64,000 bases of DNA. Origin: a virus. Taxonomy: Duplodnaviria; Caudoviricetes. The stretch is from positions 32,001 through 96,000 of the IMG/VR virus record IMGVR_UViG_3300046318_000439, one strand, 5' to 3'. Position 1 is the first letter of the stretch. Every line of letters begins with the position of its first letter. The position numbers were made by a program, and so were the translations under genes. Below the pieces are notes generated by a model. That model did not search any database. It had not been told where the DNA came from and saw only the letters and a list, made by a program, of their open reading frames with translations. Below, piece by piece: positions 47,571-57,796 of the stretch.

Positions 47571-48236
47571 TTAACATACAAGAGCTTTATGTGTTAATTC
47601 TGCTTTAGGGAAACCAAAGTATTTGGCTTTCCAATCGTTCTGTGCAAATCCGACTAAAGAAGACCATTCGTCCTTCTTTTCTATTAATCGCTTCGCTGCG
47701 TTCTCCCAATCTGTGGCAAGAACAAACTTCTCGATGTTTTCCTTATAGGCAGTACACTCCTCTGATGTGTGAAAATCTTGCTCGATGTGGATCACTTCAA
47801 ATATTTCCTCTCCATCGAAGTAATCTAGGGCAAGATCCAATCCCCATTTTTGTTTACATTGTAACAAATAGCTTAGCTTGGGAATCTGCGGTTTGAATGA
47901 AAGAAGTTGCTGTAAAGCATCTTCCGTGAAATTGCATCGGTGGAGAACAGTGCAATGGTCTAATATGAACCCTTTAGGTTGATTAGACAAATGCATCCAA
48001 GCTTCTTGGAATGCATTATGATTTAGTATTTCATTATAGACTGGATAACCATTCACCCAATAGTACTCTCGTTCGAGTTGGGTTAATTCGAATCCGTCTT
48101 TATCAAAGTAATTAGTGGCCTGTGTTAACAGCTTATGCTGCATCACCGGCGCTTTGCATGTTGGGTTTTTATACACCAACGCATGTTTATTTACAGTGAA
48201 CATAGATTTATTTATGCTTTTTCTATGTCCAAACAA
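47571..48236 (-). CDS. Hypothetical protein
   Basis: ORF track; a plausible alternative start is at 48203, just after CATAAATA. Confidence 0.65.
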   Translation of the reverse strand: MFGHRKSINKSMFTVNKHALVYKNPTCKAPVMQHKLLTQATNYFDKDGFELTQLEREYYWVNGYPVYNEILNHNAFQEAWMHLSNQPKGFILDHCTVLHRCNFTEDALQQLLSFKPQIPKLSYLLQCKQKWGLDLALDYFDGEEIFEVIHIEQDFHTSEECTAYKENIEKFVLATDWENAAKRLIEKKDEWSSLVGFAQNDWKAKYFGFPKAELTHKALVC

Positions 48237-48267
48237 CTACTTTTTGTAGTTCCTTATTATAAACAAG

Positions 48268-48344
48268 GAGTTACTGTTGGTGGGTAATTCTGTTACGAGG
48301 AAACCCACCGAAACCCTAAGCAGTGTTTAGGCTGCTAATGCGAA
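48268..48344 (-). ncRNA. Detached 3' end of the tmRNA coding piece (second tag end FALAA* plus stems)
   Basis: TTC GCA TTA GCA GCC TAA, then GCAG/CTGC hairpin and GGTGGG...CCCACC stem. Confidence 0.7.
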
Positions 48345-48360
48345 CTTAAATGTTTGAATT

Positions 48361-48368
48361 TATAAATA
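48361..48368 (+). promoter_or_regulatory. Late promoter TATAAATA for the homing endonuclease
   Basis: Exact match 33 nt upstream of ATG 48401. Confidence 0.7.
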
Positions 48369-48400
48369 GCATTATCATATACTTTTATAGGGAAAACAAC

Positions 48401-48952
48401 ATGACAGTTCATTTTGTATATATGTGGTTTGATCGTGTGCGCAAAATGTTTTACGTCGGTCAACATACTGGATCTCTGAATGATCAATACACTTCTTCTT
48501 CACGTTGGCTAGCTGGAGAGATACGTTATCGTCCAGCCGACTTTAAACGTCGCATCATTCGTACATTCAGGACTAAGCATGAAGCTCAGCTATATGAAGG
48601 CAGACTACTAACGCTCATCCGATCCAACGAGTTTGGCTCGAGGTATTATAACCTGAAGATGGGTGCACCTAAAGGCAACTTGCCTTGGAATGCTGGTAAA
48701 ACTAATGTATATTCGAAAGATACGTTAGATAAAATGTCGACCGCCAAAAAAGGACGGCCTTCTCACAATAAAGGTAAACTGAGCCCACTATCAGCCCAAA
48801 ACGGTAAAAAGGGAGCTTCAAAGCTCGCCAAAACTGTAACAGGGAGAAGAATGGCTACTAGGCTAGATGGTACACGGTACTGGATATATCCAGATGTAGA
48901 TTGTTTGGGTGATAAGGAACAATCTACAAATCCTCATTCGATCACTGCTTAA
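48401..48952 (+). mobile_element. Free-standing GIY-YIG (Seg-like) homing endonuclease with NUMOD3-like repeats
   Basis: FVYMW...KMFYVGQH, YTSSS, YYNL, PWNAGK, KMSTAKKGRPSHNKGK. Likely start is 48401 rather than 48350. Confidence 0.8.
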
Positions 48953-49197
48953 GCAGCGAGAGCGAAGCGGCTATCATTAGCTGCAATTACATTTATTTGC
49001 TTCTTCGGCCGAGTGTCCTCAACCCTATCGTCTTTCACATTGACGTGTTGCCGTCTCTACTATCTCACGCTGTCGAAACTGTTTCAGGCCCAATAGAAAG
49101 TATACTACAGCTTTCAGTTACGATACCCCGTAGCACCCCTTAATATACTTTCTGGTGGACCTGCCCGGTACTGCCCCGGGGTCCAACATGCCTTCGC
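48949..49197 (-). ncRNA. ssrA: Circularly permuted two-piece tmRNA: acceptor piece ~49197-49153, intervening segment 49152-49092, coding piece from 49091
   Basis: Acceptor stem GGGCCTG/CAGGTCC with G3.U70, then A-CCA. T arm CCCGG-GGCAGTA-CCGGG. Helix CAGCGTG/CATGTTG. Tag frame 48984-48949 reads AANDSRFALAA*, with U-5/A-4 before the resume codon. Confidence 0.92.
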
Positions 49198-49333
49198 TTT
49201 GAAGGGATTACAACAATTCTTTTTTACGAGTTACCAAATGGTATATTACCCAAAAATATATATTAACTGTAGTAGCAATGCCCCATATAAAGGTCCAGTG
49301 CCAGTAGTCTATTAGTATCATAATTATTATATA

Positions 49334-49561
49334 TTAAAATGGAGCGTCAGGCAAGCTATTTAACCACTTCTGCTTCTCAAACTTTGGTTTCTTTAGCTTG
49401 GCTATCTCCGTCAGTGTCAAAGAAGGATCGCCGTTCATAAAGTGTTCTGCATCCTCACGAGAGAAGAACCGCCGAAGCGGTCCGTCCTCATCACTTACTA
49501 CGAATCTACGAACTGGTCTGAATGGCTCAGGCAGCTTCAGCAAATGTAACGGCAGTTTCAA
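49334..49561 (-). CDS. Hypothetical protein (start uncertain)
   Basis: ORF track. Confidence 0.45.
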   Translation of the reverse strand: MKLPLHLLKLPEPFRPVRRFVVSDEDGPLRRFFSREDAEHFMNGDPSLTLTEIAKLKKPKFEKQKWLNSLPDAPF

Positions 49562-57282: not shown

Positions 57283-57290
57283 TATAAATA
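57283..57290 (+). promoter_or_regulatory. Late promoter TATAAATA for the HNH gene
   Basis: Exact match followed by a CAGGAGG RBS. Confidence 0.7.
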
Positions 57291-57307
57291 CCACAGGAGG
57301 ATGCAAA

Positions 57308-57796
57308 ATGAATGATAATGAACTGTATGAATTGTTCCATAGTAAGTACCGATATGAAGATGGTCAATTGATATCCAAACTAACTGGACAAGCAATCAAA
57401 AACAAAGCAACACGATATTTAAAATGTGAGCTTAAAATTAATGGTAAGACACACAACTTCAGAGTGCATAGAGTTATATTTCTGATGCATCATGGATATC
57501 TACCAACAATCGTCGATCACATCGACCGCGACATATACAATAACCGGATAGAGAATTTAAGAGCAGCTAGTCACAGTCAGAATAGCCAGAATCGCGGTGC
57601 GCAGTCAAACAACAAACTAGGTGTGAAGGGCGTATGTTTGAACACATCAAATAATGCCAAAAGCAAACCATACGCGGCCTTCATAAAAGCCAACGGCAAA
57701 AGATATCGAATCGGCTCTTTTGAAACCATCGAAGAGGCCTCTCGCGCTTATAACGACCATGCATCGTTGCATTTTGGTGAATTCAAGTCCAGTTGA
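57308..57796 (+). mobile_element. HNH homing endonuclease with C-terminal AP2-like DNA-binding domain
   Basis: VHRVIF.MHHG..P..VDHIDRDIYNNRIENLR..SHSQN..N, GVKGV, IGSFETIEEA..AY; likely start 57308. Confidence 0.88.

What the first reader, a model, noticed from the sequence alone, without database searches (positions are those of the whole stretch)
48268..49197. Phage two-piece tmRNA split by an antisense homing endonuclease that supplies a synonymously recoded tag end
Seen: a permuted tmRNA whose tag ends TTC GCT CTC GCT GCT TAA, with its own CTGC-TTAA-GCAG hairpin. About 600 nt further on, beyond a GIY-YIG gene on the opposite strand, lies a second end, TTC GCA TTA GCA GCC TAA, with the downstream stems. 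Both read FALAA*. The endonuclease stop (48950-48952) overlaps the tag stop in the TTAA palindrome. Known: free-standing T4 Seg/Mob endonucleases spread by intronless homing and are protected by sequence changes at the cut site. Inference: the nuclease targets the conserved tag codons, and the inserted element restores tmRNA function with a recoded, cleavage-immune tag, orphaning the ancestral 3' end. Late antisense transcription could also silence the tmRNA.
Basis: partly seen in the sequence, partly recalled or inferred. Interest (0 to 1): 0.8.

Follow-up and report, generated by a model that had tools for sequence, protein, structure and literature searches.

The report
Endonuclease cassette replaces phage tmRNA end
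A selfish homing-endonuclease gene sits inside the tmRNA (ribosome-rescue RNA) gene of a freshwater T4-like phage and keeps that gene working by bringing its own copy of the gene's last ~100 bases, pushing the phage's original end aside as a dead remnant; the same arrangement recurs in about 20 different related phages.

Summary
A permuted (two-piece) tmRNA lies on the minus strand (48877-49267). A GIY-YIG/NUMOD3 endonuclease gene lies on the plus strand (48401-48952). A second FALAA* tag end plus 3' pseudoknot lies at 48347-48279.

Relatives support the core interpretation:
- The distal copy is 90-96% identical to the working 3' ends of about 20 endonuclease-free relatives.
- None of 40 + 67 endonuclease-free alleles has a second tag end.
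- All 39 assessable homologues of this endonuclease abut a convergent tmRNA.
- 20 of 21 distinct ones carry a displaced pseudoknot behind the same junction.
- Pairs of cassettes are 82-100% alike from the first tag codon to that junction, and unrelated outside it.

So the mobile unit is tag + stop hairpin + pseudoknot + endonuclease + late-type promoter. The displaced end is the recipient's own.

Corrections: the gene is not split; its 3' end is replaced. The "recoded" tag is a natural allele type also found without the endonuclease.

Cleavage specificity, immunity and antisense silencing remain untested. The closest analogue is the fungal mitochondrial mobile ORFs that carry a replacement gene C-terminus. 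Earlier notes of this scan flagged this same stretch in overlapping windows of this genome, not on other DNA.

The parts
48877..49267 (-). Functional permuted (two-piece) tmRNA gene: acceptor piece, intervening segment, coding piece with PK1, tag, stop hairpin and 3' pseudoknot.
   Evidence: Rfam RF04321 at 48949-49215, 112 bits. Full-length beta_tmRNA match at 48877-49267, 83.7 bits. ARAGORN call.
48949..48984 (-). Tag reading frame (A)ANDSRFALAA plus TAA. It belongs to the imported cassette.
   Evidence: ARAGORN and sequence. 95.6% identical to cassette-borne tags in L087, although the tmRNA bodies are unalignable.
48895..48935 (-). Imported 3' pseudoknot ('A type'). GAGG (48935-48932) pairs with the loop CCTT. 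The stem is 48928-48918 / 48905-48895. It is encoded antisense to the last codons of the endonuclease ORF.
   Evidence: Sequence. Aligned to the post-tag helix of the beta_tmRNA model. Homologous stem-loops with compensatory changes occur in 44 distinct alleles.
48401..48952 (+). GIY-YIG / NUMOD3 homing endonuclease gene, 183 aa. Its last ~19 residues are a read-through across the antisense pseudoknot up to the TTAA.
   Evidence: phrog_314 at 1e-12. Pfam GIY-YIG at 17.4 bits for this protein and 22.9 bits, above threshold, for the 63%-identical L083 protein; NUMOD3 at 26.6 bits in L091. SegC/SegE-like hits. The I-TevI catalytic domain is the top fold match. The tail varies with pseudoknot type and has pLDDT below 50.
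48361..48368 (+). TATAAATA, a T4-type late-promoter box, 32 nt upstream of the endonuclease ATG. It is part of the cassette.
   Evidence: Only 4 copies in 64 kb against 8.7 expected. Two of them precede the two endonuclease genes of the window.
48348..48997 (.). Extent of the imported cassette: tag, stop hairpin, pseudoknot, endonuclease gene, promoter. The left edge is known to about 10 nt.
   Evidence: Homology to the syntenic endonuclease-free relative L001 (89%) ends at 48996. Homology to cassette loci L087/L088 starts at about 48998. The right edge is the conserved junction ...TTTAAG|TTCGCATT.
48327..48347 (-). Displaced remnant of the resident tag: AAG TTC GCA TTA GCA GCC TAA (KFALAA*). 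It has no tag start and no tmRNA body upstream.
   Evidence: Identical or nearly identical to the working tag ends of L001-L006, L020, L027, L044 and others. The same 18-mer is the end of an intact tag in 67 distinct endonuclease-free loci.
48279..48326 (-). Displaced resident stop hairpin and 3' pseudoknot ('B type'). AGGG is at 48317-48314. The stem is 48309-48303 / 48285-48279.
   Evidence: 90-96% identical to the functional 3' ends of about 20 relatives. Rfam partial beta_tmRNA match at 48280-48368. In the endonuclease-free relative L002 the same element is followed directly by a homologue of the next gene here.

Best explanation
This is a mobile homing-endonuclease cassette living inside the 3' part of a phage tmRNA gene.

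In tmRNA orientation the cassette (about 48997-48348) carries:
- a complete substitute tag reading frame,
- the hairpin that holds the stop codon,
- the 3' pseudoknot,
- a Seg-like GIY-YIG/NUMOD3 endonuclease gene on the opposite strand,
- that gene's own late-type promoter.

It is joined to the resident gene just upstream of the tag on one side, and immediately 5' of ...AAG TTC GCA TT... in the resident tag on the other. The working tmRNA therefore consists of the resident body plus the imported end. The resident tag end and pseudoknot (48347-48279) are left downstream without a body and are non-functional as tmRNA.

Inferred mechanism. During co-infection the endonuclease cuts endonuclease-free tmRNA alleles that have the contiguous tag ...TTC GCA TTR GCA GCC TAA. 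The break is repaired from the cassette-bearing genome, using the conserved tmRNA sequence just upstream of the tag as one homology arm and the displaced end as the other. This copies the cassette in and again displaces the recipient's end. Because both arms lie within the tmRNA gene, the element can move between phages whose tmRNA has different neighbours. The carrier allele is protected because its site is interrupted and its substitute tag differs.

Shown here: the anatomy, the presence/absence pattern, the cassette boundaries and the origin of the two ends. Inferred: cleavage site, immunity and current activity.
For: 1. The distal end is the ancestral type. It is 90-96% identical over 61-70 nt to the working 3' ends of about 20 endonuclease-free relatives. 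In the endonuclease-free relative L002 a working B-type end is followed directly by a homologue of the gene that follows the displaced end here. The B-end-to-flank continuity is seen directly in L121 compared with L002 and L017.

2. Presence/absence. None of 40 distinct endonuclease-free alleles has a second tag end. The B-type tag end is functional and endonuclease-free in 67 of 67 further distinct loci. Wherever it is displaced, an endonuclease gene lies between it and the tmRNA.

3. Association. Of 41 loci with an endonuclease at least ~43% identical and matched well beyond the N-terminal ~90 residues, all 39 assessable ones have a convergent permuted tmRNA abutting its 3' end. The 12 more distant homologues have none.

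4. 20 of 21 distinct endonuclease upstream regions carry a displaced pseudoknot, and 19 carry a TTCGCATT-like stub at one conserved junction.

5. Cassette boundaries.
- L095 vs L104: 82-100% identity (one window at 72%) from the first tag codon to the junction, and 22-80% / 32-57% outside it.
- Window vs L087: the tag and pseudoknot windows are 90-100% identical, while the bodies are unalignable.
- L087 vs L088: 100% identical across the promoter, then orphans that differ by compensatory stem changes.
- Closely related cassettes carry different orphan types and flanks: L095 is A-like, L104 is B-like.

6. Orphans decay as tags. There is a 14-nt deletion removing the stop hairpin in the L007-like clade and a 1-nt deletion in L121. 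All 19 cassette-borne functional tags are intact.

7. No cassette-bearing allele has TTCGCATT in its functional tag: 0 of 19, against 13 of 40 endonuclease-free alleles (Fisher p = 0.005; the samples are not phylogenetically independent).

8. Endonuclease-free B-type tmRNA alleles occur in the same freshwater metagenomes (joints and loose ends).

9. The enzyme is full length. The residues invariant over 26 homologues (Y7, Y18, H22, E66, N84) fit the GIY-YIG catalytic set, and the best fold match is I-TevI.
Against: No cleavage, homing or RNA data exist for this uncultured phage, so the target and present activity are inferred.

The functional end does not track the endonuclease tree. A-, C- and B-family pseudoknots are interspersed, with at least 2 switches forced by supported branches. 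The end next to the endonuclease has therefore been exchanged more than once by a route the simple model does not explain.

Endonuclease-free twins of the cassette-borne ends exist (L032 = L121 end; L017 close to the L007 end; L136/L137/L139 A type). The substitute end is therefore not element-specific.

Between the window and L087 the tag and pseudoknot are 95.6% identical, but the endonuclease genes only about 70%. This needs either strong constraint on the RNA or separate histories.

Displaced pseudoknots keep perfect stems everywhere. That fits recent capture, but also an unknown retained function.

The window protein itself is below Pfam's GIY-YIG threshold, and the Foldseek E-value is weak (0.2).
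Confidence: 0.75

Rival explanations
1. Reverse polarity. The proximal (A-type) end is the phage's own. A free-standing endonuclease gene landed just downstream of an intact tmRNA and dragged along a fragment of the tmRNA 3' end from its previous host, so the distal copy is the foreign passenger.
For: The type of functional end does not follow the endonuclease phylogeny. The break between pseudoknot type and endonuclease lies exactly at the end of the pseudoknot. Endonuclease-free alleles with the same functional ends exist.
Against: In the window, similarity to the syntenic relative L001 stops just before the tag, and similarity to other cassettes starts there. Closely related cassettes share the functional end but differ in orphan and downstream flank (L095/L104; L087/L088). 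Orphans are contiguous with the same flank that follows working B-type ends in endonuclease-free relatives. Orphans are up to 100% identical to different local functional alleles, while the endonucleases have diverged to 50-70%.
Confidence: 0.1
2. Fossil. The architecture arose by homing as described, but the window's endonuclease is no longer active. The arrangement is now inherited only vertically, and the overlap with the tmRNA has no present consequence.
For: The window protein scores below Pfam's GIY-YIG threshold. Relatives show C-terminal truncations to 128-147 aa. No expression data exist.
Against: The ORF is the longest of its family (183 aa, equal with L091). It keeps all residues invariant in 26 homologues and an exact TATAAATA box. 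Near-identical cassettes in different flanks show recent mobility in the family.
Confidence: 0.12
3. Intervening sequence. The 600-nt insert is an intron or processed spacer that is removed from the RNA, so that the tmRNA body is joined to the distal end.
For: tmRNA genes interrupted by group I introns are known in some bacteria (own knowledge). Two-piece tmRNAs are processed from one precursor (PMC9004378).
Against: No intron family matched even at E = 10. The endonuclease is antisense. The proximal copy already completes the tag, stop, hairpin and pseudoknot. Orphan tag ends are deleted or frameshifted in many relatives.
Confidence: 0.02

Closest known systems
Fungal mitochondrial mobile ORF elements (mORFs) that carry a replacement gene C-terminus: Allomyces macrogynus atp6; Glomus atp6, atp9, cox2, nad3 (PMC3630166 and the Allomyces work cited there).
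   Same: An endonuclease gene (LAGLIDADG or GIY-YIG) is inserted in a conserved gene together with a foreign copy of that gene's 3' end. The foreign copy takes over. The native end is displaced downstream and stays closest to the relatives' allele. The two ends differ mostly at synonymous sites.
   Different: Here the host is a phage, not a mitochondrion. The invaded gene is a structural RNA (tmRNA), so a tag ORF, a hairpin and a pseudoknot are replaced rather than a protein C-terminus. The endonuclease is on the opposite strand with its own promoter and overlaps the RNA's 3' structure. About 20 distinct cassette-bearing alleles are seen.
Free-standing Seg/Mob homing endonucleases of T4-like phages, especially SegB in the T4 tRNA gene cluster (PMC2330249; review PMC2988022).
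   Same: GIY-YIG catalytic domain plus NUMOD-type DNA-binding region. About 30% identity to annotated SegC/SegE-like proteins. A T4-like host genome (gp59 neighbour). Presence/absence among related phages. SegB likewise recognises a conserved motif of an RNA gene.
   Different: Seg genes sit between genes and spread with flanking markers through ordinary synteny. They do not carry a duplicate of the target gene's end or leave a displaced remnant. Here both homology arms lie inside the target gene.
Integrase-driven genomic islands and prophages in tRNA/tmRNA genes (Islander, PMC4383910).
   Same: Insertion into the 3' part of a tmRNA gene. The element supplies a sequence that regenerates the gene, and a displaced fragment of the target marks the other end.
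   Different: There is no integrase and no att-type identical repeat. The element is about 650 nt with an endonuclease. The two ends are only 13/18 identical in the tag and have different pseudoknot stems. The host gene is a phage-borne tmRNA.
Two-piece tmRNAs of aquatic T4-like phages (Methylophilales phage Melnitz, pelagimyophages; PMC9004378).
   Same: The nearest cultured relative by the neighbouring DUF932 protein is Melnitz, at 58.7%. Both have a permuted tmRNA with an ANDxxFALAA-like tag.
   Different: That paper reports no endonuclease in or next to ssrA. It describes a glutamine-riboswitch-like 3' domain, which Rfam does not find here.

Membership tests
Permuted (two-piece) tmRNA | Match to the curated covariance model above its gathering score | tested here: met
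   RF04321 at 112 bits against a gathering score of 47, full model 1-213. beta_tmRNA full length at 83.7 bits against 84.
Permuted (two-piece) tmRNA | tRNA-Ala-like acceptor with G3.U70, T arm and CCA; tag ORF ending in hydrophobic xLAA plus stop | tested here: met
   GGGCCUG / CAGGUCC-ACCA pairing with G3.U70, read from the alignment. Tag AANDSRFALAA*.
Permuted (two-piece) tmRNA | Processed into two RNAs and active in trans-translation | not testable with these tools
   No RNA run holds the stretch.
GIY-YIG homing endonuclease (Seg-like) | GIY-YIG catalytic domain | tested here: inconclusive
   Window protein: Pfam PF01541 at 17.4 bits, below the 22.6 cut-off. Its 63%-identical homologue L083 passes at 22.9 bits. 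phrog_314 'homing endonuclease' at 1e-12. The top fold match is the I-TevI catalytic domain (probability 0.94, but E 0.2, TM 0.56 by target). A PDB sequence profile found nothing.
GIY-YIG homing endonuclease (Seg-like) | Separate DNA-binding region (NUMOD3 or similar) after the catalytic domain | tested here: inconclusive
   NUMOD3 at 26.6 bits against 20.4 in family member L091. The window protein aligns over that region, but Pfam reported no NUMOD3 match for it.
GIY-YIG homing endonuclease (Seg-like) | Sporadic presence/absence at one genomic site among related genomes | tested here: met
   19-21 distinct occupied alleles against more than 100 empty tmRNA alleles.
GIY-YIG homing endonuclease (Seg-like) | Site-specific cleavage of the empty allele and biased inheritance | not testable with these tools
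   Needs protein and DNA substrates, or crosses.
Target-restoring endonuclease element (mORF-like 3'-end replacement) | The imported end is contiguous with the gene and intact; the native end is displaced downstream of the endonuclease | tested here: met
Target-restoring endonuclease element (mORF-like 3'-end replacement) | The displaced end groups with the relatives' native alleles; the imported end groups with other elements | tested here: met
   The distal copy is 90-96% identical to endonuclease-free relatives. The proximal tag and pseudoknot are 95.6% identical to L087's cassette, although the bodies are unrelated. Caveat: A-type ends also occur without the endonuclease.
Group I intron with homing endonuclease | Ribozyme core recognisable around the ORF | tested here: not met
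   No intron family matched up to E = 10 in 48000-49500.

The most novel reading that the evidence does not exclude
A whole family of free-standing endonucleases has specialised on phage tmRNA genes. It uses a third way, besides introns and inteins, to live inside an indispensable conserved gene: it substitutes the gene's 3' module and keeps the displaced module as a portable homology arm. As a by-product it drives frequent swapping of the degradation-tag and pseudoknot module among aquatic phages. This would explain the mosaic tmRNA genes, and the endonuclease-free 'twin' alleles would be footprints of past invasions. The perfectly maintained displaced pseudoknot may be under selection for that role.
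Probability: 0.4. Interest if true: 0.75.

Novelty: new variant of a known kind. Interest (0 to 1): 0.62.

Why it matters
It shows how a selfish endonuclease can colonise a structural RNA gene without an intron, by carrying a working copy of the part it displaces. Until now this strategy had been documented for protein genes of fungal mitochondria.

It gives a concrete explanation for the mosaic structure of phage tmRNA genes and for the variation of the proteolysis tag among related aquatic phages.

It offers a natural series of occupied, empty and presumably resistant alleles. From these, the recognition site of a new GIY-YIG enzyme could be read off and tested.

It also warns annotators that a tmRNA-like fragment downstream of a phage tmRNA is a displaced end, not a second gene.

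Tried and rejected
- DNA search of the region against deposited phage genomes: no match.
- Sequence profile of the endonuclease family against PDB chains: nothing meaningful.
- Foldseek against PDB: only weak E-values, although I-TevI ranks first.
- Sequencing runs: no RNA holder listed, so nothing can be said about expression, the 3' ends of the coding piece or antisense transcripts. Only contigs were laid. They show the cassette arrangement in another sample and endonuclease-free B-type alleles of relatives, not a same-strain polymorphism.
- Apparent 'orphans' in endonuclease-free loci L061 and L074, and in L049/L050/L077, were matches to the tRNA gene that follows the tmRNA, not second tmRNA ends.
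- Idea that the AANDSRFALAA tag is exclusive to cassettes: rejected. L136, L137 and L139 have it without any endonuclease.
- Idea that the functional end and the endonuclease are strictly co-inherited: rejected by the tree.
- Idea that the orphan is always B type: rejected. It is A-like in L095.
- A link between the 3' pseudoknot and the glutamine riboswitch reported in Melnitz ssrA (PMC9004378): no Rfam match here, not pursued.
- The pairing statistic is partly circular, because hairpins were selected by pairing. Only the diversity of stems (25 different 6-nt stems, 3-5 pair types per position) is informative.
- Complex prediction, the search of protein representatives and the metagenome and genome scans were not used.
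Full report
**What is in the window**

The window is part of a 202-kb virus record with terminal repeats. Its neighbours place it among T4-like phages:
- a gp59 helicase loader (Pfam T4_Gp59_N/C);
- a cell-wall hydrolase;
- a DUF932 protein.

The nearest cultured relative by the DUF932 protein is Methylophilales phage Melnitz (58.7%), followed by the Sinorhizobium phiM12 group. The runs that hold the stretch are freshwater metagenomes.

A permuted tmRNA lies on the minus strand.
- ARAGORN gives 48858-49245 with tag AANDSRFALAA*.
- Rfam tmRNA_permuted gives 48949-49215 at 112 bits.
- The two-piece beta_tmRNA model aligns full length to 48877-49267 (83.7 bits, gathering score 84), including the helix and hairpin after the tag.
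- The acceptor stem has G3.U70 and an encoded CCA (alignment).

An ORF lies on the plus strand at 48401-48952. Its TAA overlaps the tag's TAA in TTAA.

A second end lies 622 nt downstream on the tmRNA strand. It reads AAG TTC GCA TTA GCA GCC TAA (48347-48327) and is followed by a hairpin and a stem-loop to 48279. Rfam aligns 48280-48368 to the corresponding part (216-304) of the beta_tmRNA model (E 3e-4).

A 1129-nt contig from another sample covers 48307-49435 without a difference, so the arrangement is not an assembly artefact.

**The endonuclease**

The window protein matches as follows:
- phrog_314 'homing endonuclease' at 1e-12;
- Pfam GIY-YIG and SegE_GIY-YIG, only weakly (17.4 and 16.8 bits, below threshold);
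- proteins annotated as SegC, SegE or homing endonuclease in T4-like phages, at about 30% identity.

Family-level evidence is firmer. A 63%-identical family member (L083) passes the Pfam GIY-YIG threshold, and another (L091) passes NUMOD3.

An AlphaFold model built from 26 homologues has pLDDT 82-94 over residues 1-80. Its best PDB match is the I-TevI catalytic domain, at probability 0.94 but a weak E of 0.2.

The residues invariant over the 26 homologues (Y7, Y18, H22, E66, N84) fit the GIY-YIG catalytic set. That assignment is my inference.

The last ~19 residues are simply the antisense reading of the tmRNA pseudoknot.
- They differ with pseudoknot type. L083 stops 16 codons earlier, inside a different pseudoknot.
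- They are disordered in the model.

The overlap of the two stops in TTAA is therefore a consequence of read-through, not a designed feature. A distant endonuclease next to another tmRNA clade (L049, L057) ends in the same way.

**Which end is the old one**

I fetched 80 loci through the DUF932 neighbour. ARAGORN finds a permuted tmRNA downstream in about 50 of them.

The distal copy of the window is 90-96% identical over 61-70 nt to the working tag end and 3' structure of about 20 of these. The proximal copy's structure matches only L008, at 89% over 45 nt.

In the endonuclease-free relative L002, a working B-type end is followed directly by a homologue of the gene that follows the displaced copy in the window. 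The same continuity from B-type end into the flank is seen in L121 compared with L002 and L017.

The closest syntenic relative is L001 (95% DUF932). Its body is 89% identical to the window's up to 48996, just before the tag, and it has the tag end AAG TTC GCA TTG GCA GCC TAA.

From 48998 onward the window instead resembles the tag and pseudoknot of other endonuclease-bearing loci. It is 95.6% identical to L087, although the tmRNA bodies are unalignable.

**The 3' structure is a real, conserved module in both copies**

Across 44 distinct alleles the region after the tag follows one plan:
1. a hairpin with the stop codon in its loop;
2. a G-rich stretch followed by TTT;
3. a 6-11 bp stem of highly variable sequence;
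4. a loop of one of three families:
   - A: CCTTATYAMCCAA
   - B: YCCTCGTAACAGAAT
   - C: RCTTGGMAACAGAA
5. the complementary strand.

There are 25 different 6-nt stems and 3-5 pair types at each stem position.

The G-rich stretch co-varies with the start of the loop: GAGT with ACTT, AGGG with TCCT, GRGG with CCTT. I read this as a pseudoknot (inference).

The window's proximal copy is a regular A-family member, and the distal copy is a regular B-family member.

**The endonuclease family is tied to tmRNA genes and to a displaced end**

Searches with the protein and with a five-sequence alignment gave 52 loci.
- 41 have an endonuclease that matches well beyond the N-terminal ~90 residues (about 43-74% identical). 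All 39 assessable ones have a convergent permuted tmRNA abutting the endonuclease's 3' end (ARAGORN; Rfam for the seven that ARAGORN missed). The other two contigs end within 200 nt.
- The 12 more distant homologues have no tmRNA nearby.
- Of 21 distinct regions upstream of the endonuclease start, 20 contain a displaced pseudoknot and 19 contain a TTCGCATT-like stub, at one conserved junction (...AAACTTTYAAG | TTCGCATT...).

The endonuclease-free alleles show the converse.
- None of 40 distinct endonuclease-free alleles has a second tag end. The few apparent hits were the tRNA gene that follows the tmRNA.
- The 18-mer TTCGCATTRGCAGCCTAA was scanned through IMG/VR. It is the end of an intact tag with no endonuclease downstream in 67 of 67 further distinct loci. 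In the companion classification of the same scan, which needed 700 nt upstream, the one copy that is not the end of an intact tag (L172, the contig of L083) lies behind an endonuclease gene.

One endonuclease-free locus (L214) has a second pseudoknot-like hairpin beyond a small ORF, but no second tag end.

**What moves**

Pairwise profiles give the boundaries of the mobile unit.
- L095 and L104 are 82-100% identical (one window at 72%) from the first tag codon, through pseudoknot, endonuclease and promoter, to the junction. They are 22-80% identical upstream and 32-57% downstream. Their orphans belong to different families (A-like and B-like) and their flanks differ.
- L087 and L088 are 100% identical over the endonuclease start and promoter, but their orphans differ by fully compensatory stem changes.
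- L121 and L122 are identical genomes except for a patch in the displaced pseudoknot.

Different orphans are nearest to different endonuclease-free alleles, up to 100% over 44 nt, although the endonucleases have diverged to 50-70%.

This is what homing predicts. The unit made of tag, hairpin, pseudoknot, endonuclease and promoter is copied. The recipient's own end stays behind the junction.

Orphan tag ends decay. A 14-nt deletion removes the stop hairpin in one clade, and there is a 1-nt deletion in L121. All cassette-borne functional tags are intact.

**Target and immunity (inference)**

No occupied allele has TTCGCATT in its functional tag: 0 of 19, against 13 of 40 empty alleles (p = 0.005). 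The samples are not independent and were collected differently.

The orphan retains everything from AAG TTC onward. A site contained in that part would therefore be cut in the carrier as well. The recognition or cleavage site should span the junction, that is, the first tag codons plus TTCGCATT. The primary protection of the carrier would then be interruption of the site.

The substitute tag differs from the common empty allele at 5 of 18 positions in the last six codons, all synonymous. That is consistent with resistance but does not prove it.

The substitute is not a purpose-made recoding. A-type tags and pseudoknots occur without any endonuclease (L136, L137, L139), and a similar pseudoknot occurs in L008.

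**What does not fit neatly**

- The family of the functional end (A, C or B) is scattered over the endonuclease tree. The break lies exactly at the end of the pseudoknot. The end adjacent to the endonuclease has therefore been exchanged several times. Possible routes are recombination within the endonuclease gene between two occupied alleles, or conversion from the orphan. I could not decide between them.
- Endonuclease-free twins of cassette-borne ends (L032/L121, L017/L007) may be resistant natural alleles, sources of the ends, or products of loss.
- The high identity of tag and pseudoknot (95.6%) against about 70% for the endonuclease gene between the window and L087 implies strong constraint on the RNA or separate histories.
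- The displaced pseudoknots always keep perfect stems. That fits recent capture, but would also fit a retained role.

**Expression signals**

TATAAATA occurs only four times in the window, against 8.7 expected. Two of the four copies lie 18-32 nt upstream of the two endonuclease genes, at 48361-48368 and 57283-57290.

This fits T4-type late expression. That seg and mob genes are often late is from my own knowledge and the review PMC2988022.

A late transcript from 48375 would run antisense through the pseudoknot and tag. Whether this affects the tmRNA is untested.

**Comparison with what is known**

- Two-piece tmRNAs are common in aquatic phages (PMC9004378).
- I found no paper linking a homing endonuclease to a tmRNA gene.
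- The closest described system is the fungal mitochondrial mobile ORF that brings a foreign C-terminus of atp6, atp9, cox2 or nad3 and displaces the native one (PMC3630166).
- T4 SegB shows that a Seg enzyme can recognise a conserved RNA-gene motif (PMC2330249).
- Integrase-borne islands restore tmRNA genes in a formally similar way (PMC4383910).

The present case combines these. It is a Seg-like enzyme in a phage, a 3'-module replacement in a structural RNA gene, and an antisense overlap with that RNA. I rate it a new variant of a known kind.

**Earlier notes of this scan**

This same stretch had been flagged from overlapping windows of the same genome. One note pointed to a second cassette in the window, which I checked only in part.

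Noticed in passing
window 57283-57796 (+): A second free-standing endonuclease gene: Pfam HNH_3 at 3.5e-16, with an AP2-like C-terminus by eye. An exact TATAAATA lies 18 nt upstream of its start. I checked only the ORF, the domain and the promoter box.
   Followed up: partly
window 49150-49190 (-) compared with L001:1776-1915: The tmRNA body itself is mosaic. The window's T arm is the alpha-proteobacterial type (loop GGGCAGUAC; alpha_tmRNA match at 54.5 bits). The closest syntenic relative L001 has a standard GGUUCGAUUCC T arm and an unrelated intervening segment between otherwise 89-95% identical flanks.
   Followed up: partly
L145:7028-7489 (-), also L150 and L151: A different GIY-YIG-looking gene occupies the same position, next to an A-type tmRNA end. 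The YVY...YYIGKG motif was read by eye; Pfam found only a weak zinc-finger match. A conserved hairpin lies upstream of its start: a variable stem with compensatory changes and a loop GGAKAY..TCGCG. The same hairpin recurs upstream of the endonucleases in L049, L057, L077 and L090.
   Followed up: partly
L049, L050, L057, L077 (downstream of the tmRNA with tag ATYASNDNVPYSAMKVAA): A distant GIY-YIG homologue (33-38% over the N-terminal ~50-75 residues) lies antisense between another tmRNA clade and a tRNA gene. In L049 and L057 its stop again overlaps the tag stop in TTAA. L077 carries a truncated copy. No displaced pseudoknot is seen there.
   Followed up: partly
L214 and L139 (downstream of the tmRNA): These endonuclease-free loci have a small secreted-protein gene between the tmRNA and a second pseudoknot-like hairpin. 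This may be a footprint of an older insertion or a reused terminator module.
   Followed up: no
L121 compared with L122: Two otherwise identical contigs differ only in an ~80-nt patch covering the displaced pseudoknot. This looks like a gene-conversion patch.
   Followed up: no
G000:C1:189422-189790 (-), outside the window (L082): A second GIY-YIG paralogue in the same genome, 32% identical over residues 5-136. Its context was not examined.
   Followed up: no
L017 compared with L002 (tag and pseudoknot region): Two endonuclease-free relatives with near-identical tmRNA bodies and downstream flanks differ by a clean swap of the ~95-nt tag + pseudoknot module (FLMAA**/C type against KFALAA*/B type). 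The module is therefore exchanged as a unit even where no endonuclease is present now.
   Followed up: partly
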